From: Dehalococcoidia bacterium
GTDB taxonomy: Bacteria; Chloroflexota; Dehalococcoidia; Lucifugimonadales; CATOSD01
Assembly: GCA_965217565.1 (NCBI GenBank)
Contig: CBDCIS010000009.1
Span: forward strand, 19,544 to 83,543
Direction of reading: 5' to 3'
Length of the DNA: 64,000 bases
Positions 15,821 through 49,492 of the stretch are shown one piece after another; the stretch's first letter is position 1, and each line of letters begins with the position of its first letter. The notes beneath the pieces were generated by a model. The model made no database searches. It worked only from the letters and a program-made list of their open reading frames with translations, and was not told the DNA's origin. The position numbers were made by a program, and so were the translations under genes.

Positions 15821-15935
15821 GAGATGCCCCGCCTTCTGAGAAATTCATCACATTCTAGCAAGAGTGGATATAAGGGTCAATGCTTTGCGCTCAATTCCAC
15901 GCCGGTTCACGGGCTTATCTGGGCCAGTGGTGGGG

Positions 15936-15941
15936 TATAAT
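15936..15941 (+). promoter_or_regulatory. candidate -10 box TATAAT for selA
   Basis: TATAAT overlaps the ATG at 15940, which argues for the downstream start at 15979. Confidence 0.3.
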
Positions 15942-15978
15942 GGATTCATTACTACCCAATGGCGACGCGGAGCAGGCT

Positions 15979-19918: not shown

Positions 19919-20039
19919 GGAGTGATGATGGACGTCCAGACGTCTTGAGTCAAGGACTGGTTCATGCGGGACAAACCCACTTCGAAGCTGTTTGAATACT
20001 GCTATAATGGCGCAAATCATCTGTCTCCAACCGGAGGTG

Positions 20040-20603
20040 ATGCCAGTGACAACCACAAAGACGAAACTTCTAACTGCCGCAGACCTGCTGCGGCTGTACA
20101 GCGAAGGCGTTCGCGGCGAATTGATCCGGGGGGTGCTTTGCGAGACAATGCCGACAGGAGGAAAACACGGCGAAATCGTAATGAATTTGGGCTATGAGAT
20201 CAAGAATTTCGTCAAGCCAGGGCGATTGGGACGGCTGGCCGGTTCTGATGCCGGCGTTCTGCTCGAACGAGACCCTGACACCGTCCGGGAGCCGGACATT
20301 GTGTACTTTTCGGCAGAAAAGCTCCCTCTGGACGTGGAGGTTTCGGGACACTACGAGGTGATTCCCGACCTCGTGGTCGAAATCAGGTCCCCCGGCGACA
20401 GCCGGCAAGCGGTCAACGACAAGGCGCTCATGTGGCTGAGCTACGGCGTCCGGCTGGTGTGGGTGGTGCATCCCGAGGGCCGCGCCGTGGACGTGCACCC
20501 CAGAGATGGCAGGGTGACGAGGCTCGCCGAGGGCGACACGCTTGACGGAGGCGACTTGCTGCCCGGCTTATCCTGCGAGGTCAAGGACATTTTCGACGCA
20601 TAG
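20040..20603 (+). CDS. Uma2-family (DUF820) endonuclease-like protein
   Basis: GGKHGEIV...EPDIVYF...PDLVVEIRSPGD motifs; GGAGGTG precedes ATG 20040. Confidence 0.75.
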   Translation: MPVTTTKTKLLTAADLLRLYSEGVRGELIRGVLCETMPTGGKHGEIVMNLGYEIKNFVKPGRLGRLAGSDAGVLLERDPDTVREPDIVYFSAEKLPLDVEVSGHYEVIPDLVVEIRSPGDSRQAVNDKALMWLSYGVRLVWVVHPEGRAVDVHPRDGRVTRLAEGDTLDGGDLLPGLSCEVKDIFDA

Positions 20604-24701: not shown

Positions 24702-25085
24702 CTAGCGCGGCACGGCGGCGTTTAGGGCCTGGTCGAAGGTCTTGATTCGGCTTACGCCGCGGCGACGGCAGCTTGCCAGGTGGCAGAGGTCTCGGGCGCC
24801 CAGCGCGGGATGCTGCTCGTGGAGTTGCCGCGCCAGGGTGACATCCTCCTCTTCGAGCGGCCACACCTCCACGCCGGCTCTGCTCACCAGCGACATCGCC
24901 GCGTCCAGCGTGGCAAGCCTGCCCACCGGCAGATAGGCGTGCGCCAACTCCTGCAGGACCTCAGCCGACGTGCACAGCGGCGCGCGACTCCGGTTGGACT
25001 CGATGAAGAACTCGCGAGCGGGAGCGCGCAGCGGATGCGGCGCGCCCACCGCGTACATGAAGACGTTGGTATCGACGAAAATCAC
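24702..25085 (-). CDS. vapC: PIN-domain toxin (VapC-like)
   Basis: MIFVDTNVFMY start, 127 aa, 4-nt overlap with the upstream antitoxin gene. Confidence 0.8.
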   Translation of the reverse strand: MIFVDTNVFMYAVGAPHPLRAPAREFFIESNRSRAPLCTSAEVLQELAHAYLPVGRLATLDAAMSLVSRAGVEVWPLEEEDVTLARQLHEQHPALGARDLCHLASCRRRGVSRIKTFDQALNAAVPR

Positions 25086-25357
25086 GTTCCGGCCGCGCCC
25101 CGCCGGCGCGACTCAGCCATCACGCCCAGGTGCTCGTCCCAGCCGGGTTCGCGTTCAGGGCCTGCCAGGGCGTCGCACGCCTGGAAGAACTCCTCGAGTT
25201 GCGCCGGTGACTGGAAGGGGTCGGAACGCTGCCGGTCTTCGAGGCGGTCGCGCGCGGCGGCCCTCAGCCACGCGCTGAACGTCAGTCCTTCTCTGCGCGC
25301 CTGGTGGACGAACCGGTCGCGATCTTCGTCGGGTATTACCAACTGAACCCTGGCCAT
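25082..25357 (-). CDS. vapB: antitoxin (RHH/VapB-like)
   Basis: 91 aa; ...GLTFSAWLRAAARDRL ribbon-helix-helix-like segment; ATGA overlap with vapC. Confidence 0.7.
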   Translation of the reverse strand: MARVQLVIPDEDRDRFVHQARREGLTFSAWLRAAARDRLEDRQRSDPFQSPAQLEEFFQACDALAGPEREPGWDEHLGVMAESRRRGAAGT

Positions 25358-26399: not shown

Positions 26400-26601
26400 T
26401 TCGGCAATCGAGGGATTTCCAGGATTCCACTGTCGTTGGGAGAGCTTCGATAATCCGCCTATTCTCACAATCTCAGTATCCTGACGGGTACGACGCAGTA
26501 GGAACAGAGAATTGCGATACTCACGGGCCGTCGATTTGGACACAACCAAGTAATACCAATTTGTGGTGATGCCGCCGTGTTCTCGCCTGCCGCCTTTCTG
26601 G

Positions 26602-26621
26602 ATTCCCGCTTTCGCGGGAAT
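26602..26621. repeat. REP-like palindrome, family 2 (ATTCCCGCTTTCGCGGGAAT)
   Basis: 8-bp stem with TTTC loop. The same core occurs at 37061, 37179, 46077 and, as a variant, 49391. Confidence 0.7.
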
Positions 26622-26862
26622 GACGGTAGGGGTTCTTACGACGCATACGCATTTGGATGATTCGTGGCGCAGTCAAGACGAAATGGTATAAGGTCCAGGC
26701 GGACAGATAGTTGGTTGTGCGAAATCTGCCTCCCCAATGACCGGTTCGATCCCTCTCAGATGGGCCTATTTTGACGATAGACAGAACCATCTTCGAGATG
26801 TGGCTGGTCTTGGTAGGCTCACCTAAGCCCGTTACTGGGCGATCATAACCAGGTCCACCTCA

Positions 26863-27729
26863 TTACCCGCGCGGTCTTGCGACAGCTAGAATACGATCCC
26901 TCAATTCAATCAACTCGGGAAATTCGCAGAGCTTTGCTAACCTGAAACAAAGTGATTCCTTCCGCAGACTGCCTTTAGTCTTCAATCTTAGCAATCGTAT
27001 TACCAAGGGAATCAAGATGTGCTTTCCGGAGATCCAACGAATCCGTTCAGGGTAAGATATTCCAATTCGTTGAATCATATCTTCCAAGAGGTTGTAGAAC
27101 TCTTCAGCGTCGACGGAAGTTTGTTCGCTGGCCACCCGGCCAATGTAATACTGTATCGTTGATGCGTCCGGCAAAATCGGGTCGTTTCCAATGTATTGTT
27201 CGATGGACTGAGGAAAGTGGGTTTCGCGGTCATCCAACTCTTGCAGCAAGGCAGCACACGCGGCTAGGGCGACCGAAGCTTCTACAACCTCGGAAACCCA
27301 CTGATCAAGTTTTAATAAGCCCTTGAATTCAGCTATGCTTGAGTTGGGGGACTGCTCTTGCGCGACCGTGCAGATTGCTGTTTCCTCAACCAAGTAACTT
27401 TCAATATCGTAACGTCGTAACCGATAAAAGAATGGGCTATCAGAGTATGGTTTACTGATGAGTTCGTCGAAATCTCCATCTACCACATAGAATTCTGGTT
27501 TTGCCAAGGAACCATCGCCCTGTATGGCCATTCTTGCAAGAACTTTATTCTTCCCCCCAACGCCTAGAACTCGTGTTATTGTCAGGTCCTCTTGAAATAG
27601 GCGTCTAAAGACCTCCGTGTAAAAGTACTCTTTGTCGGCGTCCTCAACAATAATGGTTATATCGTTGTAGGGACCAAAAAAGGTGGGCCTCGCCGAAAGC
27701 CCCCGGTCACTATATCTAAGCATCGGCAT
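26863..27729 (-). CDS. DUF4435-like (Toprim-type, AriB-like) protein
   Basis: 288 aa; N-terminal acidic strand DITIIVEDADKEYFY; 14-nt overlap with the end of the upstream ABC-ATPase gene. Family call is from memory of the motif pattern and gene context. Confidence 0.5.
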   Translation of the reverse strand: MPMLRYSDRGLSARPTFFGPYNDITIIVEDADKEYFYTEVFRRLFQEDLTITRVLGVGGKNKVLARMAIQGDGSLAKPEFYVVDGDFDELISKPYSDSPFFYRLRRYDIESYLVEETAICTVAQEQSPNSSIAEFKGLLKLDQWVSEVVEASVALAACAALLQELDDRETHFPQSIEQYIGNDPILPDASTIQYYIGRVASEQTSVDAEEFYNLLEDMIQRIGISYPERIRWISGKHILIPLVIRLLRLKTKGSLRKESLCFRLAKLCEFPELIELRDRILAVARPRG

Positions 27730-28275
27730 TGACCTTAGCGCTGATGTCTATGATTGCTTCCTGGGCCGCACCAGCTATCTCGGGAGAATGGGTAGCAATA
27801 ATGAACTGTGCGTTCGGGTTGGCCTCTGTGATGCTGTTAACGTAACGGTTTTGCCAAGCGACATGCAGGGACAACTCCGGCTCATCCACAAACACGGCAA
27901 ACTCTTGCTCGGTGTCGAACTGGAAACATAGGAACGTGAACAATACAAGCAGTTGGAGTTCTCCTGAAGACAAGAGGTGGCTACTGATACGCTGGCCATT
28001 GGGGAGGTCAACCATAAGCTCGAACCCACGCACTAGCCTCAGCCGCTTCCTGTTGTCACTGAGAAAGCTGTTGACCGACTCCAAAAACTTGTTGGATCGA
28101 CGGATTACCTTGGACCGATCCGATTCATACTTCTGTATCATCGGGATCAACCGCTCGATACGGGAAGCTATAGAGGATGCATCAAATATCCAATCTAACC
28201 ACTTGCTGGCATTGGGGTCTTCAGCGAAATTCTCCGGAATCGTCTGACCTCCTAACTGGTCGACGACATCTCTAA
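27716..28275 (-). pseudogene. ABC-type ATPase (AriA-like), fragment 4 of 4 (C-terminal)
   Basis: Frame open up to the IS junction. Contains signature LSSGELQ, Walker B FVDEPELSLH, H-loop IATHSPE. Confidence 0.8.
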
Positions 28276-29126
28276 GAGGGTGTGTGAGAAGTTCAAATTA
28301 GGTTGGTGCTAAGCGTCGGAGCATGAGATGAATCATAGCTATATGGGTCCACGCCTCGGTTGTATCGGACAGAGCTTCGTAGTCCTTGCTCATCCGACGG
28401 CACCTGCTGAGCCACGCGAATGTTCGTTCGACCACCCATCTTCGCGGCAGCACTTGAAAACGGTGGCTGTCCCTGGGGCGCTTGACAATCTCGAGTGCCC
28501 AGCCTGTCAGGGCCCAGACCCACTCGACCAGCTTTCCAGCATAGCCAGCATCGGCCCAGACCAACCTCATGCGGGGAAACCTCCCTATCAATTTATCGAT
28601 GACCAGCTTCGCCCCATCCCTATCCTGGATATTGGCAGGATGCACCACCACCGCCAGCAGCAACCCCATGGTATCTACAATGATATGTCGCTTTCGACCG
28701 TTGACCTTCTTGCCAGCGTCATAGCCACGAGGCCCCCTTTTTCCGTAGTCTTGACCGACTGGGGCTGTCTATGATAGCAGCGCTAGGTGTCGGGTTCCTC
28801 CCCTCGGCCTGCCGGACCTTGACTCGGAGAGCGTCATTGGCTCGTTCCCATGTACCATCCTCTCTCCACTCCCGAAAATACCACCATACAGTACCCCAAG
28901 GCGGGAGGTCATGCGGCATGGCTCGCCACGTGCAACCGTTGCGCAGAACGTATAGAATGCCGTTGACGACTTCCCGCAGGTCTACAGTACGTGGCCTTCC
29001 CCCAGTTTTGGCTGCCGGGAGTAGCGGAGCGAGCATCTTCCACTGTTCATCAGTCAGGTCACTGGGGTATGCTTTGCGTTTCATGCCTCCATTCTAATAC
29101 ATATCCAAGACTTCTCACACACCCTC
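28276..29126 (-). mobile_element. IS5-A, copy 2, inverted relative to copy 1
   Basis: Same 17-bp inverted repeats and identical ORF translations (orfA 28719-29084, orfB 28298-28768). Flanks are TAA (28273-28275) and TTA (29127-29129). Confidence 0.9.
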
Positions 29127-29538
29127 TTAGGCGACGAAAGTAATCCTCACTGAGGTTCCGAGCATTACTTAACCCCAAGTTTCCTAACGCCGTTCCGACT
29201 CTAGTGCGCCGCTCTTCGAGCTCTGATCGAGTCCAAACTCGTGAGGCAAGTTCTGATCCTTCTTGTTCGAACAACGAGGCAAAAATATTATTGCGCAATT
29301 CATCGTTTAAAGACGACACTTCGAATTGTTCCTGGCGAAACACACGTTCCGCCAAAGTCAACACTTGTGATATCGGTAGATATCCTGCCGCAGTCGAACG
29401 CCTAGAACGTTGACGGTAACGAGATTCTCGGTCTTCCGTCCATCGGCGGTTTAAGGGTAAGTACAGAGGGCCGGGCAACTCGCTCAAATGGCGAAGTACG
29501 GTATTATTTCTTCGGTCCTCCAAGAACCTTGAAACTAA
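29127..29538 (-). pseudogene. ABC-type ATPase (AriA-like), fragment 3 of 4
   Basis: VSRFLEDRRNN...SEDYFRRL, lying between the IS630-family and IS5-A insertions. Confidence 0.7.
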
Positions 29539-30705
29539 TACCATTTCATGTTGACGAGGCCGCATAGTGTGCCGGAAGACTTCGCGTTGTGTGTTCGATC
29601 CAACTCCACGCCGTGAGCGACCGCACCCGACCCGGATCAGATTCAAGCTCACTCAGGTAGGCGTCAACCGCCTTCATCTTCTCCTCTATGCTCCCGTATA
29701 TCCTGCCCTCCACCCACCTGCGGACCTCTTGGAAGACCCGCTCAGCGGGATTCAGCTCAGGACTATATGCAGGCTGCACGATCGTTGCCACTCCAACAGT
29801 CCGTACTATCTCACCCCGGTGACCACGCGCTCCATCCCACACCAGGGCCTCGATGTCCGAGTGATGCTTCAGGCCATCGACTGCCACCGCTATAGCCGCA
29901 GACTTCATCGAATCGATCCAACCCCACAACAGCTTGCCCCTCCGAACGTCTACCACCAGGAACAGGTACATCCACTTGTAGACCATCTGCACTCGCTGAT
30001 GCACCTTCACTCCACGACGACCCCACACCCTACGCACCATCCCCCGCAGGCCCACTCGCATCTCATCGGCAAAGCCAAAGGCCGTCTCAGAACTCACGCC
30101 CGCTTCGGCAAGGCAACAACCAAGCCCCCCTTTTTCCACGACTCCTGCGCAGCTACGTCTGCCTTCTCATGACGGCCCCTCGGGACCTTCGGGCTGCATC
30201 CCAACCTCTCAAGCAGACCATAGACGCTGCCCGACTTGTAGCTCACCCCATACTCGGACTCTATCCAGTCCCTGATCTCTCCCGCCGTTCTGAACCGTCC
30301 CGTCGACACCTCCTCGGTCAACTCCTGCTCTTCATCTGTGCTCAGAAAGCGCGGTTTGCCCATGCCTCCCATCTTGTGGGACAACACTCCTTCCACACCT
30401 CCCTCTCTATACCAGCCCACCCACGTCTGTACCGTCCGGTAGTGGACTCCCACCGCTCTTGCCGCCTCACCGAACTGCCATCCCGACCGCACCAGCCACA
30501 GTCCATGGAGTCGAGTACGAAGGCTAGTGTCACGTTCTGCCCGGTAGGCCGCCTTCAGCGCCTCCGGTGTATCCTCCCCATGCCAATCTATTCGAAGCGG
30601 TCGTCCGATCATCTGATACCCTCCAACACTGTATGTCGGCTAGAGCATGGATGAACTATTAGGACATCGCTAGATACTTCCAGGTCTTGTTATCATCAAA
30701 TGGTA
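29539..30705 (-). mobile_element. IS630-family element (IS630-A), 1167 bp
   Basis: Ends are TACCATTTCATG (29539-) and CATCAAATGGTA (-30705). Direct TAA at 29536-29538 and 30706-30708. orfA (30094-30612) is an HTH part; orfB (29546-30139) is a DDE part with LNPAERVF. orfB lies in the -1 frame at an A5G6 run (30125-30135). Confidence 0.85.
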
Positions 30706-31020
30706 TAAGTCGGATGGTTCCTCAACGACACGGGCCGCACTAAAGTGGGTCAGTTCCGGCCTGCTTACGATAGGTATTTCCAATGGGTCATCTATGCCTT
30801 TGACTCTTATCGTTACGGCGTCCTCAGCGCGCTTCGCCGTGACTCTTTGAAATTTTCGCTCCCCAGAGTTGGTATACGCGATGTTGATTTCATCGAACTC
30901 GATACCAGAAAGGAGGTAGGCTGCTGGGATTCCGTCCTGCACGGATGCCGGTGACAGCGCCCAAGCCATCGCATTCAGGATAGATGTCTTACCTGAACCG
31001 TTCACCCCGATGAGGATGTT
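30706..31020 (-). pseudogene. ABC-type ATPase (AriA-like), fragment 2 of 4 (Walker A)
   Basis: NILIGVNGSGKTSILNAMAWAL...EEPSDL; bounded by the IS3 left end and the IS630-A right end. Confidence 0.8.
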
Positions 31021-32348
31021 TGAGGTGGACCCAGAAAACTGGACAGGTGGCTAAGTGAGAGTCCTGCTCCTAAACTAAGGGCAGCTGTTGCTGTCTGGAA
31101 GGAGAAGGACATGGCGCAAGGAAGAAGGAAGCACAGCCCGGCCTTCAAGGCCAGGGTGGCCCTGGATGCGGTGAAGGGGGAGGAGACAGTGGCCCAGTTG
31201 GCCGCCCGGTACGAAGTCCACCCGGGCCAGATTCAAGCCTGGAAGAAGGTCCTGACCGGGGGTGCCGCCGGTGTGTTCGGTAACGGTCAGGACCACAAGG
31301 CCAAGAGGACGCTGCCTTGGTCGCCCGGTTGTACCAGGAGATCGGCCAGTTGAAGGTGGAGCGGGATTTCTTGGCGGAGAGGTCCGGTCCATGAACCCGG
31401 CCCGGCGGCGGGAGATGGTGGACCGGGAGCATCCCTCGTTGCCGATAGTGGGACAATGCGCCCTGCTGGGGGTGAGCCGCTCCAGCATATACTACCGTCC
31501 CAAGGGGGCTTCGGAAGAGGAGCTGTCGCTGATGCGGGAGATAGACCGGCAGTAGAAGGCGACCCCCTTCTATGGGTCGCGGCGGATGAAGGTCTGGCTG
31601 GAGCGGCAGGGTATAGTGGTGAGCCGGAAGCGGGTGCAGCGGCTGATGCGTGTCATGGGACTGCGGGCCATCTACCGGCGACCTCGTACCAGCCAACCGG
31701 CGCCGGGAGTGCGGGTCTATCCCTATCTGTTGGGGAAGGCCGAAATCACCAGACCCAACCAGGTGTGGGCCTCAGACATCACCTACCTGCCCATGGCCCG
31801 GGGATTCCTCTACCTGGTGGCCGTCATGGACTGGCACAGCCGGTATGTCCTGTCCTGGCGCCTGTCCAACACTCTGGAGGCAGGCTTTTGCGCCGAGGCC
31901 CTGACAGAGGCGCTGGAGAGGGGAAGGCCGGAGGTGTTCAACACTGACCAGGGGAGCCAGTTCACCAGTCAGGAATTCACCCAGGTCCTTCAGGACCGCG
32001 GTGTGAAGATCAGCATGGACGGGAAGGGAGGTACCAAGACAACATCTTCGTCGAGCGGCTGTGGCGCACGGTGAAGTACGAGGAGGTGTACCTGAAAGCC
32101 TACGCCAGCGCGGGGGAGGCCCGGAGGGAACTGGGAGCTTACTTCCGGTTCTACAATGACCAGAGGCCCCATCAGGCCTTGGGATACAAGACACCCGGGG
32201 AAGTGTTCTCTGAAGACACGGCGCCCCAAAATGAAGAGTCAGCAGCTGAGAGGTGGTCGCCGGAAGCAGACGTGGTATCTTATGCGGGAGCTGCGGGACC
32301 CTCACTTAGCTCCACCTTAATTCTGTCCAACTAGTCGGGTCCACCTCA
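31021..32348 (+). mobile_element. IS3-family element, copy A (degenerate)
   Basis: TGAGGTGGACCC...GGGTCCACCTCA ends. Relative to copy B it has single-nt deletions near 31076, 31306 and 32037 that break orfA and orfB. It shares the in-frame TAG at 31553-31555. Confidence 0.85.
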
Positions 32349-32684
32349 CACCACGCGGGTGCTCTTGCGCCGCAGCATGGACTTGAAGGCGACGGCGTGC
32401 TCGCGCTTTCTGGTGAAGCGGCTGAACTTCCAGACGAGAATCACGTCGAAGGGAGCCTTCGGCTTGCTGCCCTCCTCGATCATCTCCCTGAACTGGGGCC
32501 TGTCGGCGACGCGGCCGCTCTCGGCCTCGTCCACGTACTCGCGGGCCACGGAATAGCCGTTGGCCCTGGCGTAGTCCTTGAGCGCCCGCAACTGGGCGGA
32601 CACGGACAGGTCCACGTCCTGCCGGTCGCTGGACACCCTAGCGTTGAGAGCCGCCTGGGTAAGGGGTTGTACGTGCTTCTTCAT
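32349..32684 (-). pseudogene. serine recombinase, N-terminal resolvase-domain stub cut by IS3 copy A
   Basis: ALNARVSSDRQ catalytic-serine motif; the ORF stop is supplied by the IS terminus. Confidence 0.7.
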
Positions 32685-32725
32685 ATCTTTCTCCCTTGCG
32701 ATGGTTTGTACTGGTGCGGGCTGCT

Positions 32726-33052
32726 CTACTCTTGGGTGGAATAGGCGACGGGGTGGACTTGGAGCCGGAAGCCCAGCACACGCAGCACCCTGAGCACGGT
32801 GTTGAACTCTGGGCTGGCGCCGGCTCGCATAGATTTATAGAGGCTCTCGCGGCCCAGGCCGGTCTCGTGGGCCACCCGTCTCATGCGGTGCGCGCGGGTC
32901 ATTCCCCCCAGGGTGCCCATGATGCGGTTCAGATCGCCCGCTTCCAGGGCCATGTTCAAGGCAGTGGTCATGTCCTCTGCGGTCGCCGGGTATGTCGCTG
33001 GTGTTTCTTTGCTGTCCATCGCCGATTTCACACCGTCGTGAGTTTCGCCCAT
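32726..33052 (-). CDS. HigA-type addiction-module antidote (HTH) protein, no adjacent toxin gene
   Basis: ...MTRAHRMRRVAHETGLGRESLYKSMRAGASPEFNTVLRVLRVLGFRLQV matches the pattern of the antidote family normally found downstream of a RelE/HigB-type killer gene. Confidence 0.6.
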   Translation of the reverse strand: MGETHDGVKSAMDSKETPATYPATAEDMTTALNMALEAGDLNRIMGTLGGMTRAHRMRRVAHETGLGRESLYKSMRAGASPEFNTVLRVLRVLGFRLQVHPVAYSTQE

Positions 33053-33377
33053 ACCCAGCTATAGTATCTGGTTGGATACCTAGTACGTAAGGGGCAACTG
33101 CCAGTCTGAAGCGGAGGGACGAATACTGTGAAAGAACCTCTGTAACACAACCCAACTAGGTGATTGCAAAGATTCAGCGGGAACCTTACCATATGACACA
33201 CAGGCACAGTTCACAGGAACACAGGAGGGGCTTCCTTTCATTCTCGGGCGATTGCGGACCAGTGGGATACAGGGACCACCGCTGTCCGCCAACATAGTCC
33301 GCCCCAAGAAAAACAACCGGCGAGCGATGAGTACAAGGGGAAGCGTTATACCGAAGGCATTACTCAATCACTCTTGT

Positions 33378-33386
33378 TGATATAAT
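33378..33386 (+). promoter_or_regulatory. extended -10 element TGATATAAT
   Basis: TGnTATAAT 31 nt upstream of GTG 33417. Confidence 0.35.
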
Positions 33387-33416
33387 TCGCTCTTCGATTG
33401 CACTAAGGAAGAACAG

Positions 33417-34574
33417 GTGAACGCTATGCATGAAATAAGACGGGTCGGGATAGATGGATTCAGGCGACTACGCGATGTTTCAATTGATATGCGACCGATG
33501 ATGGTAATGGTCGGGGCTAATGGTTGTGGCAAAACATCGTTCATGGACGCTTTGTCGTTACTTGCCTCCTCTGCAGAAGGGGGATTAAATCGACGGCTCA
33601 ATGACATGGGAGGTGCTTCCGAGGCTACTACCCGGGGGCGACACCAGGATATGTCGTTCAGCGCTGATATGGAAGTTCCAGACCATAATCCGCTCAAGTA
33701 CAGTATGAGTATCGCCGCGCAGGGCCATACTTATTCTGTGTCACAAGAATCGCTCACGCAAACCAGACCTGGCTATTCGCAGCCGTTCAAACACATCGAA
33801 TCTACTTATCGAGATATTCGGTACTTCGACACTGAAGAGGGACGTCTCCTCAGACCAAATTGGCAGTTCAATTACTTCGAGTCCTCTCTCTCGCAAGTCC
33901 CAAAGCTGTTCAGGGAAGCGGAGGAATTGAGACGCTCCCTCAGTGCGGTCACCCAGTACCATGTTCTCGACGTGGGAATACGTGCCCCAGTAAAACTACC
34001 TCAGCAATTGCGACCGGTTGATCTCCCAGGTGAAAACGGCGAGAACTTGGTGTCGTTCCTCTTTAATATTCGTGAAACAAACTCCGATAAATACGAGGCA
34101 ATAGAGGATACTTTACGCGTAGCTTATCCAGGCTTTGATTCCCTCAATTTTCCGATAGCGGCCGCTGGGATGATGTCAATGACCTGGAAAGAAAAGGCAT
34201 TTCGGAGTCCCATTTACATTCATCAACTTTCAGAAGGGACGTTACGGTTTCTCTGGTTGATTTCTCTTCTACAGAGTCCAGGCCTTACAACAGTTACTAT
34301 GATAGATGAGCCAGAGGTAAGCCTACATCCCGAATTGCTGGCGATACTCGCAGAGCTAATGCGTGAAGCGTCGCGCAAAACCCAGATAATTGTGGCTACA
34401 CACTCTGACCGCCTAATCCGCTTCCTTGAGACGAAAGAAGTGGTTGTCATGGACATAAAGGAAGATGGAGAGACATCCATGACTTGGGCCGACACGTTGG
34501 ATCTGGATGCGTGGTTGGCAGACTACACCCTGGACGAGGTATGGCAGATGGGAAGAATGGGAGCCAGGGCATGA
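33417..34574 (+). CDS. ABC-type (AAA_15/AAA_21-like) ATPase
   Basis: Walker A GANGCGKTS, LSEGTLR signature-like motif, Walker B MIDEPEVSLHP, VATHSD H-loop. Confidence 0.8.
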   Translation: MNAMHEIRRVGIDGFRRLRDVSIDMRPMMVMVGANGCGKTSFMDALSLLASSAEGGLNRRLNDMGGASEATTRGRHQDMSFSADMEVPDHNPLKYSMSIAAQGHTYSVSQESLTQTRPGYSQPFKHIESTYRDIRYFDTEEGRLLRPNWQFNYFESSLSQVPKLFREAEELRRSLSAVTQYHVLDVGIRAPVKLPQQLRPVDLPGENGENLVSFLFNIRETNSDKYEAIEDTLRVAYPGFDSLNFPIAAAGMMSMTWKEKAFRSPIYIHQLSEGTLRFLWLISLLQSPGLTTVTMIDEPEVSLHPELLAILAELMREASRKTQIIVATHSDRLIRFLETKEVVVMDIKEDGETSMTWADTLDLDAWLADYTLDEVWQMGRMGARA

Positions 34575-35185
34575 AGATAACCTTGATGGTTGAGGGTAAG
34601 ACCGAGAGGGCTTTCCTCCCGCACTTGAGAAATCACCTCCAGCAACAACTGGCTGGAAGGATGCCCAACCTGGACCCGGCCCCGTATCATGGACGAATCC
34701 CTACAGGCGAAAAGCTCGCGAGGACGGTACAGAGATTATTGTCGGGTCGCTACGCTTCAGACCACGTAATAGCTCTGACCGATGTTTACACTGGGATGAC
34801 TCCCGGCGACTTTCTTGATGCAGCGGACGCCAAATCTAAGGTGCGTCAATGGGTTGGTAACGAACCGAGATTCCATCCTCATGCAGCTCAGTACGATTTT
34901 GAAGCGTGGCTACTTCCATATTGGTCTCGAATCCAACAACTAGCAGGTCACAACCGAACAAGACCTAGTGGCTCCCCTGAACAAGTTAACCACACTAACC
35001 CTCCTTCTTATCACATCAGACAAATCTTCCGAAACGGCAGTTGCCGCGACGACTATGTAAAACCCAGAGACGCTGGTCGTATTTTGCGAGAGCAAGACTT
35101 ATCATTAGCAATAAACCAGTGTAGTGAACTAAAAGCCTTAATTGACTCAATCCTGAGAGTTTGCAATGGTATAGCGACACCCTGA
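34571..35185 (+). CDS. DUF4276-like (Toprim-like) protein
   Basis: 204 aa, N terminus MKITLMVEGKTERAFL; ATGA start/stop overlap with the ATPase gene. Family call is from motif pattern, size and the recurrent ATPase neighbourhood. Confidence 0.5.
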   Translation: MKITLMVEGKTERAFLPHLRNHLQQQLAGRMPNLDPAPYHGRIPTGEKLARTVQRLLSGRYASDHVIALTDVYTGMTPGDFLDAADAKSKVRQWVGNEPRFHPHAAQYDFEAWLLPYWSRIQQLAGHNRTRPSGSPEQVNHTNPPSYHIRQIFRNGSCRDDYVKPRDAGRILREQDLSLAINQCSELKALIDSILRVCNGIATP

Positions 35186-35515
35186 GTGGGTTCCGTTTGC
35201 TCACTGCTGGTGGCCATTTTAGGCCCATTCTTGGTAAATCCAATCGGCCCACATCTTCTAAGCGGGCCCCTCAAGGTTAGTGTACCCTCGATGCCCTGAG
35301 AAGGCTAACAGGCTGCCCGGTCGCCCCTCAAAGATGGTTCTGCCTCCGTCCCGACGCGTCACGCTACGGGAATCGCGAGTCCTCGGTGTGTTGACAGGCT
35401 GCCCAGCCACAGCTCGAAGATGGTGGAATCTACCGTACGCGGTGGTGGGCTTATGGGGTAGCACACACATGAGCGCCCCTATGGGAACCTGCTGGATTGT
35501 AAAGGGCGGAGTGAT

Positions 35516-36846
35516 TGAGGTGGACCGAGAAAACTGGACAGGTGGCTAAGTGAGAGTCCTGCTCCTAAACTTAAGGGCAGCTGTTGCTGTCTGGAAGGAG
35601 AAGGACATGGCGCAAGGAAGAAGGAAGCACAGCCCGGCCTTCAAGGCCAGGGTGGCCCTGGATGCGGTGAAGGGGGAGGAGACAGTGGCCCAGCTGGCCG
35701 CCCGGTACGAAGTCCACCCGGGCCAGATTCAAGCCTGGAAGAAGGTCCTGACCGGGGGTGCCGCCGGTGTGTTCGGTAATGGTCAGGACCACAAGGCCAA
35801 GAGCGACGCTGCCTTGGTCGCCCGGTTGTACCAGGAGATCGGCCAGTTGAAGGTGGAGCTGGATTTCTTGGCGGAGAGGTCCGGTCCATGAACCCGGCCC
35901 GGCGGCGGGAGATGGTGGACCGGGAGCATCCCTCGTTGCCGATAGTGGGGCAATGCGCCCTGTTGGGGGTGAGCCGCTCCAGCATATACTACCGTCCCAA
36001 GGGGGCTTCGGAAGAGGAGCTGTCGCTGATGCGGGAGATAGACCGGCAGTAGAAGGCGACCCCCTTCTATGGGTCGCGGCGGATGAAGGTCTGGCTGGAG
36101 CGGCAGGGTATAGTGGTGAGCCGGAAGCGGGTGCAGCGGCTGATGCGTGTCATGGGACTGCGGGCCATCTACCGGCGACCTCGTACCAGCCAACCGGCGC
36201 CGGGAGTGCGGGTCTATCCCTATCTGTTGGGGAAGGCCGAAATCACCAGACCCAACCAGGTGTGGGCCGCCGACATCACCTACCTGCCCATGGCCCGGGG
36301 ATTCCTCTACCTGGTGGCCGTCATGGACTGGCACAGCCGGTATGTCCTGTCCTGGCGCCTGTCCAACACTCTGGAGGCAGGCTTTTGCGCCGAGGCTCTG
36401 ACGGAGGCGCTGGAGAGGGGAAGGCCGGAGGTGTTCAACACTGACCAGGGGAGCCAGTTCACCAGTCAGGAATTCACCCAGGTCCTTCAGGACCGCGGTG
36501 TGAAGATCAGCATGGACGGGAAGGGGAGGTACCAAGACAACATCTTCGTCGAGCGGCTGTGGCGCACGGTGAAGTACGAGGAGGTGTACCTGAAAGCCTA
36601 CGCCAGCGCGGGGGAGGCCCGGAGGGAACTGGGAGCTTACTTCCGGTTCTACAATGACCAGAGGCCCCATCAGGCCTTGGGATACAAGACACCCGGGGAA
36701 GTGTTCTCTGAAGGCACGGCGCCCCAAAATGAAGGGTCAGCAGCTGAGAGGTGGTCGCCGGAAGCAGACGTGGTATCTTATGCGGGAGCTGCGGGACCCT
36801 CACTTAGCTCCACCTTAATTCTGTCCAACTAGTCGGGTCCACCTCA
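35516..36846 (+). mobile_element. IS3-family element, copy B
   Basis: TGAGGTGGACCG...GGGTCCACCTCA ends. orfA is 35607-35891. orfB is in the -1 frame from ATG 35888 to 36832 but carries an in-frame TAG at 36050-36052. Confidence 0.85.
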
Positions 36847-36924
36847 GTTTACACCTGGACGGAAGGATAACTTCAGGTCCAAATACCCATGTAGTTTCTT
36901 GAAATGTGCGGTTCGAATTATCAT
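36847..36924 (-). pseudogene. ABC-type ATPase (AriA-like), fragment 1 of 4 (start codon and first 26 codons)
   Basis: ATG at 36924; MIIRTAHFKKLHGYLDLKLSFRPGVN continues directly into NILIGVNGSGKT at 31020 once the composite unit is removed. Confidence 0.75.
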
Positions 36925-37007: not shown

Positions 37008-37128
37008 CTAGTACCATTTCCAGATGTATTTGATAATATCTCGGCTGCCTTCCACACTGGATTCCCGCTTTCGCGGGAAAGACGGATAGTATTCGATGCC
37101 TGTCATCTTCAAGTAGAAACGGTACTAG
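37008..37128. mobile_element. MITE copy a (~121 bp)
   Basis: Terminal inverted repeats CTAGTACCATTTCCAG / ...GAAACGGTACTAG; internal family-2 REP palindrome at 37061-37080. Confidence 0.7.
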
Positions 37129-37245
37129 TACCGTTTCCAGCTAGTTTTGACAATAATCGAGGCTGTCCTCGACTCTGGATTCCCGCTTTCGCGGGAATGA
37201 CGGTCACTGTTCAGTATTTGTCACTTTCAAGTGGAAACGGTACTA
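37125..37245. mobile_element. MITE copy b, abutting copy a
   Basis: CTAGTACCGTTTCCAG...GGAAACGGTACTA; shares the CTAG at 37125-37128 with copy a; its distal CTAG is split by IS630-B. Confidence 0.7.
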
Positions 37246-38480
37246 GTGGTTCAACTTTTTTGTATTGATGGGTAGAGTGACTTTAGCTTGATGCGCGCAT
37301 CCTCGGTAGTGAAGCGCCAATCCACTCGTATAACATCCCGGTTGCGTTGATTCTGCCAAGCATTGACCTCGCCGCGCAGGATGTCTTGATTGGCAATCCG
37401 TCGGTCCAGGCACTGTCGAGCCAGCACACCGATCTCTATCTCCGCCATATTCAACCAACTCCCGTGTTTGGGAGTGTAGTGTATCTCCAGTCGCTCAGCT
37501 ATACGCCTCGCCTCAGCAGGCTCGAATGCCTCGTATAGCGAGGACAGCTTGTGAGTGTTGAGATTGTCCATTACCAGCACGATCCGGTCTCTGTCAGGGT
37601 AGTCCTCGTCGACCAGTTTCTTTATCACATGCGCCCAGTCCACCTTCGTGCGGCGCTCTCTGAGCTCGACTCGGCGCCATCCGTCCAACGGTGCAAACAG
37701 CATGAACAGGCTGCTCACTCCATTGCGCTCGTATTCGTAGTCGTATGCCGCCGATAAGCCGGGCGCTGTGGGACGCGGCACTCGCGTCTCCTTGACTTGC
37801 TGTTTGCTCGTCTCATCCATGCACACCAGAACCTCATTCCCATCGTACGGCCGTTGGTAGACCTCCAGTACGTCTTCCATCGCGCACACAAACTCCGCGC
37901 TCTGACCGGGCGGGATGCACCAACTCTGCTTCAGCCACGGCTTCAGCTCGTTTTTTTAAGCGCCTGGCGAACCGTCTCGGCGCTAATGGTCTCGACTATC
38001 TCACACTCGACCAACTCGTCAGCCAACAGCTTCAGGGTCCAACTGGCACGCCCCTCCGGCGGTTCCCTGCAGGCCATCGCTATCAACCGTGCTTCACCTT
38101 CGCCGTCCAGTCTCTTTTGACGCCGACGCAGTTGCTTTTTGCGATTCAGCGCAGACTCGACCCCCTCCTCCACACAGCGCTTGCGTATTCGCTCGACCGT
38201 TGACTGTCCCACACCGAGCGCGCTGGTGATGTCCGCGTCCTTCATTCCCCCGTCCGAGCGTGACTCATCGCTCATCAGCAGAATGCGCGCATGGGTCTGT
38301 TTGTACGCCGCAGACCGACCGCGTGAGACCAAGCCGTTGAGTTCCTGTTGTTCGTCGGTAGTCAGTCTGATACGGTACTTCTTGGTAGACATCATGGTTC
38401 CTCCTCGGTTCAACGTTACGATTGAACCCCCAAGAGCAACAATGACTATCATGGTCTTCATTTCAATGATGTTGGACCAC
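37246..38480 (-). mobile_element. IS630-family element (IS630-B), 1235 bp
   Basis: Inverted repeats GTGGTTCAAC / GTTGGACCAC. TA duplication inside a CTAG target (37244-37245, 38481-38482). orfA is 37943-38461; orfB is 37251-37889 in the -1 frame at A AAA AAA (T7 at 37951-37957). Confidence 0.85.
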
Positions 38481-38918
38481 TAGTTTAATCTTTCCAACTG
38501 CTATCACATGGGCATCCGCCGCCTTACTTCCAGCACAGGATCAAGTGGGTCCCACTCCACCAAATGTATCCGCTTCACCTAGTCAGCTCCCTATTGGCCT
38601 CCAGCACGTCATCCTGCAGTGGCTGAATATGGGCATCCATCCTCATACCGTTCAGGGTTTACATTTCCAGGGGCAGTGTCAGTAGAAATCCCGTAGCAAT
38701 TCTACTTTCAACTCCCAGCGACGCAACCTTGCCCAAGCCCGGTGAAGCCCGGCCCCCCGGATTCCTTCTCGGCCCCCGACCTCCGCTACTAGTGTACCAG
38801 TGCCGCCGGTCCGAAGGCGTGTCTTGGGTCGAGCTTTTCCTCCAGGGTAACAACTTGGCAGCCATATCGGCTGAAGCAGCACCCGAAAGGGGTGCCGCGA
38901 ACACTCCGACAACTACCA

Positions 38919-39206
38919 CTAGGAACCTATCCAACCCCCGTTGCATCCAAGTCGACTACCCATGAGAACCGTACTTTTTCGTGTTGATTGAAAGACAGAG
39001 AACTCAGTCTCGAACCAAACCAGCGTCGGGAAGTCGATCCGGTCGAGGCCGGTGTGCACCAGCCTGGGGTGGCAGATGAGCATGTCGATGCCCTGCTTCA
39101 CGCTGTCCGCCACCCACGCCTCCCGCCGTTCGGGGGCCACCGCCTCGGCCTTCATCACCGCCACTGTGGTGCTCTGATTGTCTATGATGTGTGGGGGTGC
39201 CAGCAT
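38919..39206 (-). pseudogene. remnant of a helicase C-terminal domain
   Basis: ...VDMLICHPRLVHTGLDRIDFPTLVWFETEFSVF resembles helicase motif V/VI regions. It lacks an N-terminal part, and the downstream continuation (RFSW) is in another frame. Confidence 0.35.
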
Positions 39207-39269
39207 GGGGATATGCCTCCGGGAGTGCTCTTCAGCGCATTTCCGCTTGGACTAGGTGTAGTCCCTCCC

Positions 39270-40307
39270 CTACTCTTGCGACGGGATCGCGAGCACCGGC
39301 TCGCCGGACGTGCGGATTAGCGCCTCGGTTACGCTGCCCAGCACCCACCGCGTGAGACCGGAGCGCCCGTGCGTAGCCAGCACGATGATGTCGTTGGATA
39401 GCTGGCGGGACAGGTCCGTTATGGCAACGGCGGGCGAGCCGTTTACCACCTTGTGGTCGACCTCGATGCCCTTCGTCGCCAGGTTTGCCGCTACGCCCGC
39501 GAGATAGTCTCCCGCCTCCGTCTCGACCTCTACCTGGATTTCGGCGTCGATCGCGTAGGACATGCCTTCGATGTATGCCGAGGAGTTCGCCGCCAGTTTG
39601 AGCGCCTTGACCAGCGTCACCTCGAGGGCCATTTTTGCGGCGAGAGCCTCGACGAATGGCAGGGCGCTCTCTGCCAGGTCGGAGCCGTCCAGGGGCGCGA
39701 GCAGGCTGGTGAGTGTCGCACCCGGTTCCTGGTGGTACTTCCCGGCGCGCTCCGGCGTGATGGTCAGCACGGGAATGTTGACCGAATGCATGACCTTGTC
39801 GGTCACGCTGCCCAGCAGCCCGCGGCCGATCAGGTTCCTGCCGTGTGTGGACATGGCGATCAGGTCGCAGCCCTCGCGTTCGGCGGCTTCCGCGATCTGC
39901 TCGGCCGCCGCGCCGATGGTTACCATTGCGCTCGCTTTCACCCCCTGGGCCTCGAGCCTGTCGGCGACTTCCCTCAAACGCTGCAACGCCCTCTGTTCCT
40001 GGCTCTCGATCACCTGGGTCAGGTAGGAGCCGCCCTGCTCGTGGGCGTAGGTGCGGGCCCGTTCCCTATCCGCGGGTGAGACCTCGTCGGACGACGTAGC
40101 GCCCATCATGCGCCGCGGCAGCTCCAGCGCGTCGGGATCGATCGCCGACATGAGAGTTATCGGAATGTCCATTCCCCTGGCTATCTGCACGACGTAGGAA
40201 AGGATTCCTTCAGCCATCTCAGAGCCGTCCAGCGGAACCAGTATCTTCGTGAATATGTTGCTGGCCTCCTGATTAAGGGCACGACTTTGGTGATACATCC
40301 GAATCAC
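39270..40307 (-). CDS. universal stress protein with two tandem UspA domains
   Basis: Two repeats ending in ...HGRxxLxxxxLGSVTxxVxxxxxxPVL. Confidence 0.8.
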   Translation of the reverse strand: MIRMYHQSRALNQEASNIFTKILVPLDGSEMAEGILSYVVQIARGMDIPITLMSAIDPDALELPRRMMGATSSDEVSPADRERARTYAHEQGGSYLTQVIESQEQRALQRLREVADRLEAQGVKASAMVTIGAAAEQIAEAAEREGCDLIAMSTHGRNLIGRGLLGSVTDKVMHSVNIPVLTITPERAGKYHQEPGATLTSLLAPLDGSDLAESALPFVEALAAKMALEVTLVKALKLAANSSAYIEGMSYAIDAEIQVEVETEAGDYLAGVAANLATKGIEVDHKVVNGSPAVAITDLSRQLSNDIIVLATHGRSGLTRWVLGSVTEALIRTSGEPVLAIPSQE

Positions 40308-46022: not shown

Positions 46023-46144
46023 CTAGTACTGCTTCCAGCTAGTTTTGACAATAATTGAGGCTGTCCTCGATACTGGATTCCCGCTTTCGCGGGAATGACG
46101 ATCACTGTTCGGTGCTTGTCAGTTTTAAGTGGAAGCGGTACTAG
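46023..46144. mobile_element. MITE copy c
   Basis: CTAGTACTGCTTCCAG...TGGAAGCGGTACTAG; internal palindrome at 46077-46096; its distal CTAG is also the target of the adjacent IS. Confidence 0.7.
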
Positions 46145-49390: not shown

Positions 49391-49410
49391 GTTCCCGCTT
49401 TCGCGGGAAC
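49391..49410. repeat. REP-like palindrome, family 2 variant (GTTCCCGCTTTCGCGGGAAC)
   Basis: Between convergent fumC and the nucleotidyltransferase gene. Confidence 0.6.
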
Positions 49411-49492
49411 GACGGCGGAGCGCATGACCGGCTGTTGGCTGAACAATGGCGTAGGCGGGGAGACGCAGGGACGGGCGAACGGCTGACCGCCT

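What the first reader, a model, noticed from the sequence alone, without database searches (positions are those of the whole stretch)
26863..36924. PARIS-like ABC-ATPase + DUF4435-like pair: the ATPase gene is split four ways by three independent insertions yet rebuilds exactly
There are four minus-strand pieces. They are 36924-36847 (MIIRTAHFKKLHGYLDLKLSFRPGVN), 31020-30706 (ILIGVNGSGKTSIL...EEPSDL), 29538-29127 (VSRFLEDRR...EDYFRRL) and 28272-27716 (RDVVDQLGG...LSSGELQ...FVDEPELSLH...IATHSPE). They join into a single 451-codon ORF after three removals: the IS3 composite plus one GTT (5829 nt), IS630-A plus one TAA (1170 nt), and IS5-A plus one 3-nt flank (854 nt). The frame offsets between the present-day pieces (0, 0 and 2 mod 3) are exactly those predicted by these lengths. 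The downstream gene 26863-27729 overlaps the ATPase stop by 14 nt, is intact, and begins with an acidic Toprim-like strand (IIVEDADKEYFY). An ABC ATPase (AAA_15/21 type) followed by a DUF4435 Toprim protein is the AriA/AriB architecture of the PARIS anti-phage system. Three hits in one 1.35-kb gene, while the effector-like partner stays intact, suggests either an insertion hotspot or selection for loss of the ATPase.
Basis: partly seen in the sequence, partly recalled or inferred. Interest (0 to 1): 0.8.

Follow-up and report, generated by a model that had tools for sequence, protein, structure and literature searches.

The report
IS-shattered PARIS-like defence operon
A two-gene anti-phage operon of the PARIS type has had its ATPase gene cut into four pieces by three recent mobile-element insertions, which is an ordinary though unusually tidy case of a defence system being killed by jumping genes.

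Summary
Removing 5829, 1170 and 854 nt joins the four minus-strand pieces into a 1356-nt ORF (451 aa plus stop). Uninterrupted 451-aa homologues exist at 95, 91 and 86% identity, with no indel at any junction. A 94%-identical intact locus carries all three empty sites.

The PARIS assignment holds:
- The rebuilt ATPase hits PADLOC AriA best. Its AlphaFold model's first 14 PDB matches are all AriA chains.
- The downstream gene is DUF4435 / PADLOC AriB. Its model's top two PDB matches are AriB.

The locus is more damaged than reported. Two MITEs and a second IS630 sit in one CTAG about 86 nt upstream of the start codon, and another MITE lies downstream of ariB. The IS3 composite carries an intact HEC-01-like ABC-ATPase + DUF4276 pair.

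I found no evidence for a specific hotspot or for selection to keep the effector:
- dN/dS is 0.16 for ariA and 0.32 for ariB, so the damage is recent.
- The operon is AT-rich, with 2-4 times more target motifs than its surroundings.
- ariB escaping three hits has P of about 0.23.

Related Chloroflexota loci show many independent ariA disruptions, but also damaged ariB.

Verdict: a pseudogenised new member of a known family; modest interest.

The parts
36847..36924 (-). ariA piece 1, codons 1-26 (start ATG at 36924-36922). 36847-36849 is the right-hand GTT duplication.
31021..36846 (+). IS3-family composite transposon, 5826 nt, inserted between ariA codons 26 and 27. The 3-nt duplication GTT lies at 31018-31020 and 36847-36849.
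   Evidence: The relative L002 has the single site GTAAAC|ATCC. The inner flanks (CAC, GAT) differ from the outer duplication.
31021..32348 (+). IS3 copy 1, 1328 nt, degenerate. It has three 1-nt deletions and 12 substitutions relative to copy 2, and both of its ORFs are broken.
32346..32684 (-). Cargo: 5' fragment (112 aa) of a serine recombinase gene, cut off by the right end of IS3 copy 1.
   Evidence: Resolvase, 1.3e-19, profile positions 4-97 of 145.
32726..33052 (-). Cargo: HigA-type antidote gene (108 aa). No intact toxin ORF lies upstream of it.
   Evidence: dnstrm_HI1420, 4.9e-22.
33417..34574 (+). Cargo: intact ABC ATPase (385 aa), HEC-01A-like.
   Evidence: AAA_21, 5e-35, full length; HEC-01A, 1.8e-70.
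34574..35185 (+). Cargo: intact DUF4276 Toprim-like protein (203 aa), HEC-01B-like. Its start shares one base with the ATPase stop codon.
   Evidence: DUF4276, 5.1e-27; HEC-01B, 3.8e-11.
35516..36846 (+). IS3 copy 2, 1331 nt, with intact orfA (35550-35891) and orfB (36083-36832).
30706..31020 (-). ariA piece 2, codons 27-130, including the Walker A motif GSGKT. 31018-31020 is the second GTT copy.
29539..30705 (-). IS630-A, 1167 nt, with two overlapping ORFs (HTH, then DDE_3). It sits between ariA codons 130 and 131. The duplication is TAA, or TA with one more base assigned to the element.
29127..29538 (-). ariA piece 3, codons 131-266. 29536-29538 is the second TAA copy.
28276..29126 (-). IS5-A, 851 nt (DUF4096 + DDE_Tnp_1 ORFs), inserted at ariA codon 266/267. 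Its flanks are TAA (28273-28275) and TTA (29127-29129). It is 100% identical to the copy at 277-1127.
27716..28275 (-). ariA piece 4, codons 267-451 plus stop. It holds the signature LSSGE, Walker B VDEPE and H-loop ATHSP.
26863..27729 (-). ariB-like gene, 288 aa, DUF4435 Toprim, intact. Homologues start at its third codon (27723).
37012..38478 (-). Three tandem insertions, each flanked by CTAG, about 86 nt upstream of the ariA start codon: MITE 37012-37127, MITE 37130-37245, and IS630-B 37248-38478.
   Evidence: L002 has a single CTAG at this place.
26556..26688 (.). MITE (133 nt) with IS630-A-like ends and a TAA duplication, about 170 nt downstream of the ariB stop codon.
38479..38768 (-). 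Remainder of the original upstream intergenic region. It is colinear with the intact relatives (75-87% identity).

Best explanation
This is a horizontally acquired PARIS-type abortive-infection operon, probably in a Chloroflexota genome. It consists of ariA, encoding an ABC ATPase that acts as sensor and scaffold, followed by ariB, encoding a DUF4435 Toprim nuclease that acts as effector. Serial mobile-element insertion has recently inactivated it.

Shown here:
- An IS3 composite transposon, an IS630 and an IS5-family element sit at ariA codons 26/27, 130/131 and 266/267.
- Two MITEs and a second IS630 sit in one CTAG about 86 nt upstream of the start codon.
- No full-length AriA can be made.

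Inferred from E. coli PARIS: AriB must first be loaded onto the AriA hexamer, and alone it gives no defence. The intact ariB here is therefore an inert, probably poorly expressed orphan, and the system is dead.

Inferred cause of the pile-up:
- The AT-rich operon offers several times more TA/TNA/CTAG targets than the GC-rich chromosome around it.
- It is dispensable.
- After the first hit, all further insertions are neutral.

ariB is intact because the damage is recent and ariB is the smaller target, not because it is being preserved.
For: Rebuild and empty sites.

PARIS identity.
- The ATPase motifs align to E. coli AriA: K36 to K39, and E397 to E393.
- The Toprim E29 and D84-G-D86 are invariant or nearly so across the AriB family.

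Recent damage:
- dN/dS against the intact L002 is 0.16 for ariA and 0.32 for ariB, with dS about 0.15 for both.
- IS5-A is 100% identical to a second copy.

Composition:
- GC is 48.9% in the operon against 61.3% outside.
- TAA/TTA: 24.4 against 6.7 per kb.
- CTAA/TTAG: 5.4 against 1.6 per kb.

Surroundings: the rest of the window is mostly housekeeping genes, with about four other mobile-element copies.

Probabilities.

Decay in relatives takes many forms:
- Different ISs or MITEs at ariA codons of about 175, 249, 275, 341 and 375.
- A clean deletion of codons 25-429.
- Frameshifts.
- Damaged ariB.

Literature:
- AriB alone gives no defence, and its toxicity depends on prior association with AriA (PMC11464382).
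- IS insertions are known to inactivate CRISPR-Cas (PMC10359306).
Against: - Under a uniform model, three hits in 1.36 kb is unlikely (P about 0.002-0.003). The neutral explanation needs target enrichment and tolerance to insertion, which I estimated only roughly.
- Every mobile-element insertion I saw in relatives was in ariA and none in ariB (at least 8 sites). Those loci were mostly picked because ariA was truncated.
- Deep et al. report that overexpressed AriB is toxic and call AriA an antitoxin (PMC10802264). If that holds here, losing ariA should be costly unless ariB is silenced.
- No expression or function data exist for this organism.
Confidence: 0.8

Rival explanations
1. Loss of ariA is adaptive while ariB is kept. 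Either the cell gains by switching off a costly or self-triggering PARIS sensor, or it retains orphan AriB for another role. IS hits in ariA would then be selected rather than merely tolerated.
For: - ariA is disrupted independently in the window, L006, L007, L008/L009 and L013, and is deleted in L010. In each case ariB is still full length.
- All mobile-element insertions I saw were in ariA (at least 8 sites; 0.61^8 is about 0.02 if unbiased).
Against: - Ascertainment is biased: those loci were chosen because ariA was truncated.
- Once the first hit per locus is discounted, only 3-4 events remain (P about 0.14-0.23).
- Truncated gene calls occur at a similar rate, roughly 8%, in both protein lists.
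- L004 and L012 have damaged ariB with intact ariA, and L015 has both genes damaged.
- AriB alone gives no defence in E. coli.
- dN/dS gives no sign of post-loss constraint.
Confidence: 0.12
2. ariA contains a specific insertion hotspot, either a sequence or a structure, that attracts transposases.
For: - Three CDS hits plus three promoter hits lie within about 1.45 kb.
- The CTAG upstream was used three times.
- The deletion breakpoint in L010 lies within about 6 nt of the IS3 insertion site.
Against: - The three CDS sites are 312 and 408 nt apart. They were used by three unrelated transposase families with different targets (GTT, TA/TAA, TNA).
- Insertion sites in relatives are all different.
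- Re-use of the CTAG follows from IS630-type elements regenerating CTAG on both sides of each insertion.
- General AT-richness accounts for the higher target density.
Confidence: 0.08
3. The pair is not PARIS but another ABC-ATPase + Toprim module, such as an OLD, Gabija, Septu or HEC-01 type, with a different mechanism.
For: - Identity to the E. coli B185 proteins is only 16-18%.
- The AriB family profile does not find E. coli AriB by sequence.
- Many PtuA models also score.
Against: - AriA is the best PADLOC, PDB-sequence and Foldseek match. TM is 0.57-0.74, against 0.34-0.46 for PtuA.
- The two significant Foldseek hits of the ariB model are AriB; OLD and GajA are far weaker.
- The Pfam family is DUF4435, not DUF4276 and not the OLD Toprim family.
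Confidence: 0.05
4. The split is an assembly artefact, or a minority variant in a mixed population.
For: The window probably comes from a metagenome assembly, as its relatives do. IS copies are a common cause of misjoins.
Against: Each insertion has both junctions, terminal inverted repeats, a target duplication, and flanks that rejoin exactly into a known 451-aa protein. Misassembly would not produce this three times.
Confidence: 0.03

Closest known systems
PARIS (AriA/AriB) of E. coli B185; PDB 8UX9, 8V45-8V49
   Same: - Two-gene operon in the order ATPase then DUF4435 Toprim gene, with the genes overlapping.
- Similar sizes: 451 against 464 aa, and 288 against about 305 aa.
- Walker A, signature, Walker B and H-loop motifs align.
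- The full-length predicted folds match AriA and AriB best.
- The model has a low-confidence, arginine-rich loop at residues 158-181, roughly where E. coli has its radial-pore arginines R168 and R172. This is a lead only.
   Different: - Only 16-18% sequence identity.
- Chloroflexota host, and chromosomal rather than on a P4 or P2 satellite or phage hotspot. No relatives were found in IMG/VR.
- ariA is interrupted here, so the system cannot work.
- Trigger and RNA target are unknown.
IS-mediated inactivation of CRISPR-Cas (Nat Commun 2023, PMC10359306)
   Same: Natural IS transposition into immune genes switches off a defence system.
   Different: A different defence family. Here the same gene took several nested or serial hits, and one inserted element carries another candidate defence module.
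HEC-01 candidate system (ABC ATPase + DUF4276 Toprim; bioRxiv 10.1101/2024.01.29.577857)
   Same: The cargo genes 33417-34574 and 34574-35185 match HEC-01A and HEC-01B profiles over their full lengths.
   Different: - Here the pair sits between two IS3 copies, not embedded in an Hma system.
- HEC-01 gave no protection in the published assay, so a defence role is unproven.

Membership tests
PARIS (AriA/AriB) | AriA is an ABC ATPase of the AAA_15/AAA_21 type, with Walker A, signature, Walker B and H-loop motifs. | tested here: met
   - AAA_21 1.2e-19 and AAA_15 6.1e-17.
- GSGKT, LSSGE, VDEPE and ATHSP are invariant in the family.
- The motifs align to E. coli AriA K39 and E393.
PARIS (AriA/AriB) | AriA-specific profile and full-length AriA fold, as opposed to PtuA, Rad50 or SMC. 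| tested here: met
   - PADLOC AriA PDLC04164 is the top hit, 1.7e-35.
- The best PDB sequence hit is AriA, 1.6e-20.
- Foldseek ranks 1-14 are all AriA, TM 0.57-0.74; PtuA gives 0.34-0.46. The model has pLDDT 82.
PARIS (AriA/AriB) | AriB is a DUF4435 protein. | tested here: met
   - Pfam DUF4435 7.7e-21, 75 bits against a cut-off of 27, covering profile positions 2-230 of 238.
- PADLOC AriB 3.2e-21.
PARIS (AriA/AriB) | AriB has a Toprim fold with the conserved Glu and DxD metal-binding residues. | tested here: met
   - The model has pLDDT 90.9.
- Its top Foldseek hits are AriB 8v46_D and 8ux9_A: probability 1.0, E 2-4e-4, TM about 0.5.
- E29 and D30 are invariant, and D84-G-D86 is invariant or nearly so.
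- I did not establish residue-by-residue equivalence to E. coli E26, D30, D88, E90 and E122.
PARIS (AriA/AriB) | ariA lies immediately upstream of its partner ariB in one operon. | tested here: met
   - The genes overlap by 14 nt (or 8 nt) after the rebuild.
- The intact relatives L001, L002 and L014 have the same arrangement.
PARIS (AriA/AriB) | Both genes are intact, so the system can function. | tested here: not met
   ariA is split by three insertions and its upstream region by three more. This is a pseudogenised member of the family.
PARIS (AriA/AriB) | An AriA6-AriB3 complex forms, a trigger releases AriB, tRNA is cleaved, and the system protects against phage. | not testable with these tools
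   Known only for the E. coli system.
IS3 composite transposon | Two IS copies bracket the cargo, the target duplication is at the outer ends only, and a relative has the site in single copy. | tested here: met
   - The copies are direct and 98.9% identical.
- The outer flanks are GTT/GTT and the inner flanks are CAC and GAT.
- The empty site is present in L002.
- Integration by recombination into a resident IS3 copy is not excluded.
IS630 and IS5 family insertions | The family's transposase domains, terminal inverted repeats, and the family-typical TA or TNA duplication. | tested here: met
   - DDE_3 + HTH, and DUF4096 + DDE_Tnp_1.
- Inverted repeats and duplications are present.
- The second IS5 copy has a perfect TAA/TAA duplication. 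The ariA copy has TAA/TTA.
HEC-01 (cargo) | An ABC ATPase adjacent to a DUF4276 Toprim protein. | tested here: met
   HEC-01A 1.8e-70, HEC-01B 3.8e-11 and DUF4276 5.1e-27. Defence activity is unproven.

The most novel reading that the evidence does not exclude
In this Chloroflexota lineage, mobile elements preferentially knock out the sensor/scaffold gene ariA and leave the nuclease gene ariB whole. That would be natural evidence that AriB is harmless without AriA, favouring a loading/activating-chaperone role for AriA over a classical antitoxin role. It would also mean that IS insertion is a recurrent off-switch for this abortive-infection system. In this window the switch-off is coupled to the arrival of a replacement ABC-ATPase/Toprim module on the inserting composite transposon.
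Probability: 0.12. Interest if true: 0.55.

Novelty: new member of a known kind. Interest (0 to 1): 0.33.

Why it matters
It extends PARIS to a distant, environmentally abundant phylum, with a family of 451-aa AriA and roughly 285-aa AriB proteins that could be tested.

It also gives a clean, base-exact example of how defence operons decay in IS-rich genomes. This includes a composite transposon that carries one candidate ABC-ATPase/Toprim module into the ATPase gene of another.

The repeated loss of ariA with ariB retained bears on the open question of whether AriA is an antitoxin or an activating chaperone, but the present sample is biased. For genome annotation, the locus shows that defence-system counts miss systems that can be rebuilt by removing insertions.

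Tried and rejected
- **Alternative IS5 duplication.** A 2-nt TA duplication would mean removing 855 or 856 nt. This breaks the frame and does not fit the flanks of the second IS5 copy, so I rejected it. The 3-nt TNA model fits both copies and the relative's empty site.
- **Alternative IS630 boundary.** TA against TAA gives the same empty site, so the choice does not matter.
- **ariB against PDB by sequence.** Neither the single sequence nor the family profile found AriB. The link needed Pfam, PADLOC and fold comparison.
- **Public-collection scans.**
  - The genome-contig scan with ariB alone found nothing.
  - With the AriA alignment it found only three Chloroflexota MAG loci.
  - JGI metagenomes gave one short locus.
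  - IMG/VR gave none.
  - A broad unbiased survey was therefore not possible.
- **Exact-sequence look-ups.** The window's HEC-01A-like protein, P0121 and P0132 were not on record.
- **Pairing by contig length.** Pairing AriA and AriB hits this way to infer disrupted partners proved unreliable. P0146 had no listed partner, yet its locus is intact.
- **Promoter and terminator scan** around IS5-A and ariB: at or below the shuffle expectation, so uninformative.
- **HigB-type toxin** next to the cargo's antidote gene: no intact ORF found.

Full report
**1. The observation**

I dropped one copy of each 3-nt duplication and joined 36924-36847, 31017-30706, 29535-29127 and 28272-27716. This gives 1356 nt, i.e. 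451 aa plus a stop, with no internal stop. The removed lengths are 5829, 1170 and 854 nt (0, 0 and 2 mod 3), which match the frame offsets of the pieces.

- Two IS3 copies with HTH_Tnp_1 + rve ORFs and TG...CA ends.
- An IS630 with HTH + DDE_3.
- An IS5-family element with DUF4096 + DDE_Tnp_1.

**2. External proof of the rebuild**

A search of 5.8 billion proteins found uninterrupted homologues of exactly 451 aa. They have 95, 91 and 86% identity or lower, and cover 100% of the rebuilt protein. The alignment has no gap at "RPGVN|ILIG", "EEPSDL|VSRF" or "YFRRL|RDVV".

Two metagenomic contigs, L001 and L002, carry the intact operon. They are colinear with the window pieces at 90-94% nucleotide identity. 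L002 shows the three empty sites, each in single copy: GTAAAC|ATCC, CGAC-TTA-GTT and CGCC-TAA-GAA.

One small blemish is that the IS5 duplication is TAA on one side and TTA on the other. Either copy gives Leu. The second, 100%-identical IS5 copy at 277-1127 has a perfect TAA/TAA duplication, which fixes the 3-nt TNA model and rules out a 2-nt model.

**3.

The comparison with L002 reveals a further 1467-nt insertion at a CTAG about 86 nt upstream of the ariA start codon. It consists of three tandem IS630-type elements, each flanked by CTAG:
- Two 116-nt MITEs at 37012-37127 and 37130-37245.
- IS630-B at 37248-38478.

A related 133-nt MITE with a TAA duplication lies about 170 nt downstream of ariB. 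More copies of this MITE occur at 46033-46143, and its core occurs at 49392-49415.

The IS3 element is a composite of two direct copies:
- Copy 1 has three 1-nt deletions and 12 substitutions relative to copy 2, and its ORFs are broken.
- The inner flanks (CAC, GAT) differ from the outer GTT duplication, so the unit arrived as a whole.

Its 3.2-kb cargo holds:
- A 5' fragment of a serine recombinase gene.
- A HigA-type antidote gene.
- An intact ABC ATPase + DUF4276 pair that matches the PADLOC HEC-01A and HEC-01B profiles (1.8e-70 and 3.8e-11).

HEC-01 is an ABC-ATPase/Toprim candidate system that gave no protection in its published test.

**4. Identity of the pair**

*The rebuilt ATPase.*
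- It scores AAA_21, AAA_15 and SMC_N in Pfam.
- In PADLOC its best hit is an AriA model (1.7e-35), ahead of many PtuA models.
- A profile of the family finds E. coli AriA as the best PDB sequence (1.6e-20). The Walker A lysine and Walker B glutamate align with K39 and E393.
- An AlphaFold2 model (pLDDT 82) has AriA chains as its first 14 Foldseek hits. These have E about 1e-17 and TM 0.57-0.74 over roughly 460 columns. PtuA follows at TM 0.34-0.46.

*The downstream 288-aa protein.*
- It is DUF4435 (7.7e-21) and PADLOC AriB (3.2e-21).
- Sequence searches do not reach E. coli AriB.
- Its model (pLDDT 90.9) has AriB as its two significant PDB matches: probability 1.0, TM about 0.5, 16% identity. 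OLD and GajA Toprim regions are far weaker.
- It retains every invariant residue of its family, including E29/D30 and D84-G-D86.

The pair is therefore a distant but real PARIS-type module. Related loci come from Dehalococcoidia and other Chloroflexota MAGs.

**5. How it works, or worked**

The following comes from the E. coli work, not from tests here. AriA forms a hexamer that holds up to three AriB monomers. A phage trigger such as Ocr, together with ATP, releases AriB. Free AriB dimerises and cleaves tRNA, which stops translation.

AriB alone gives no defence, and its toxicity depends on prior association with AriA (PMC11464382). Another group describes AriA as both antitoxin and chaperone (PMC10802264).

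In the window no full-length AriA can be made, so the system is off. I infer that ariB is an inert orphan, cut off from its promoter by more than 9 kb of inserted DNA. Read-through from IS5-A, which points the same way, cannot be excluded.

**6. Hotspot or selection?**

*Timing.*
- dN/dS against the intact L002 is 0.16 for ariA and 0.32 for ariB, with dS about 0.15 for both. Neither gene shows decay, so the insertions are recent.
- IS5-A is identical to its second copy.

*Composition.*
- The operon has 48.9% GC against 61.3% in the rest of the window.
- It carries 2-4 times more TA, CTAG, CTAA/TTAG and TAA/TTA motifs per kb.

*Surroundings.* The rest of the window is mostly housekeeping genes with about four other mobile-element copies.

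*Probabilities.*
- Three or more hits in ariA has P about 0.002-0.003 under a uniform model.
- This rises to 0.015-0.08 with 2-3.6-fold target enrichment.
- It rises to 0.05-0.28 if only 15-30% of the DNA tolerates insertion.
- Given three hits in the operon, ariB escapes with P about 0.23.

The three sites are far apart and were used by unrelated transposases, so there is no single hotspot. The triple use of the upstream CTAG follows from IS630-type elements regenerating CTAG on both sides of each insertion.

**7. Relatives**

Truncated AriA calls on long contigs led to further loci.

| Locus | State of ariA | State of ariB |
|---|---|---|
| L006 | About 2-kb DDE_Tnp_1 element at codon ~249 | Full length |
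| L007 | IS630 at codon ~275; two tandem IS5-type copies at codon 375 | Full length |
| L008 / L009 | MITE at a CTAG, codon ~175 | Full length |
| L013 | IS1595 at codon ~341 | Full length |
| L010 | Clean deletion of codons ~25-429 | Full length |

These loci were chosen because ariA looked broken, so the sample is biased. Other loci give a more mixed picture:
- L004 has a degraded ariB with an intact ariA.
- L012 has a frameshifted ariB with an intact ariA, at 5x coverage.
- L015 has both genes damaged.
- L001, L002, L003, L005 and L014 are intact.

Truncated gene calls make up roughly 8% of both protein lists. The operon is clearly decaying often in this clade. A preference for ariA is suggested but not demonstrated.

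**8. Verdict**

The idea of a hotspot or of selection to spare the effector is not supported by what could be tested.

This is a pseudogenised new member of a known defence family, killed by mobile elements. That process is already documented for CRISPR-Cas (PMC10359306). The features worth recording are:
- The exactness of the rebuild.
- The number of independent hits.
- The HEC-01-like cargo.
- The recurrent ariA damage in relatives.

Noticed in passing
window 33417-35185: An intact ABC ATPase (385 aa) + DUF4276 (203 aa) pair matches PADLOC HEC-01A and HEC-01B. It is carried as cargo between two IS3 copies. So a second ATPase/Toprim candidate defence module has been delivered into the ATPase gene of the first.
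   Followed up: partly
window 32726-33052 and 33053-33420: A HigA-type antidote gene (dnstrm_HI1420) has no intact toxin ORF upstream in any frame, so it appears to be an orphan antitoxin within the cargo.
   Followed up: partly
window 32346-32684: The N-terminal 112 aa of a serine recombinase is cut off by the right end of IS3 copy 1. The stop codon is supplied by the IS end.
   Followed up: partly
window 26556-26688, 37012-37127, 37130-37245, 46033-46143, 49392-49415: A MITE family of 116-133 nt shares the hairpin core CTGGATTCCCGCTTTCGCGGGAATGACGG. Its ends (TACCATTT / TACCGTTTCC) resemble the IS630-A inverted repeats, and its duplications are TA or TAA. It is probably mobilised by the IS630 transposase.
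   Followed up: partly
window 37008-38482: Three IS630-type elements have inserted one after another into the same CTAG. Each insertion regenerates CTAG on both sides, so the site is re-targeted.
   Followed up: yes
window 28273-28275 and 29127-29129: The IS5-A target duplication is imperfect (TAA against TTA, differing at the middle base). The identical copy at 277-1127 has a perfect TAA/TAA. The cause could be a point mutation or a feature of the mechanism; it is unknown.
   Followed up: partly
window 31021-32348 against 35516-36846: IS3 copy 1 carries three single-base deletions and 12 substitutions relative to copy 2, and both of its ORFs are broken. Only copy 2 looks able to supply transposase.
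   Followed up: yes
L010 9865-10005: An orthologous locus has ariA reduced to codons 1-24 fused to codons 430-451. The 5' breakpoint of this deletion lies within about 6 nt of the site where the IS3 composite sits in the window.
   Followed up: partly
window 38769-39270 against L001/L002: The large serine recombinase gene that lies divergently upstream of ariA in L001 and L002 is absent from the window. Homology stops at 38768, and a 95-aa ORF fragment (38919-39206) follows.
   Followed up: no
window 35308-35450, 26774-26807; L001 11359-11466: Another short repeated element is shared between the end of the cargo, the region just downstream of ariB, and a relative's contig (88% identity over 108 nt). 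Its nature is unknown.
   Followed up: no
window 24702-25357: A PIN-domain (VapC-like) gene at 24702-25085 has a small overlapping upstream ORF at 25082-25357. This is probably a toxin-antitoxin pair bordering the low-GC island.
   Followed up: no
window 62389-63498: A further DDE_Tnp_1 transposase gene (369 aa). It is one of the few mobile elements in the window outside the PARIS locus.
   Followed up: no
window 15880-17355 and 18764-20056: A selenocysteine synthase gene (SelA) and a 430-aa protein with an N6_N4 DNA methylase domain lie among the housekeeping genes.
   Followed up: no
rebuilt AriA residues 158-181: An arginine-rich loop (NRRWTEDRESRYRQRSRRST) is predicted with low confidence. 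It lies roughly where E. coli AriA has the radial-pore arginines R168 and R172, which are implicated in trigger sensing. This could be a conserved trigger-binding feature.
   Followed up: no
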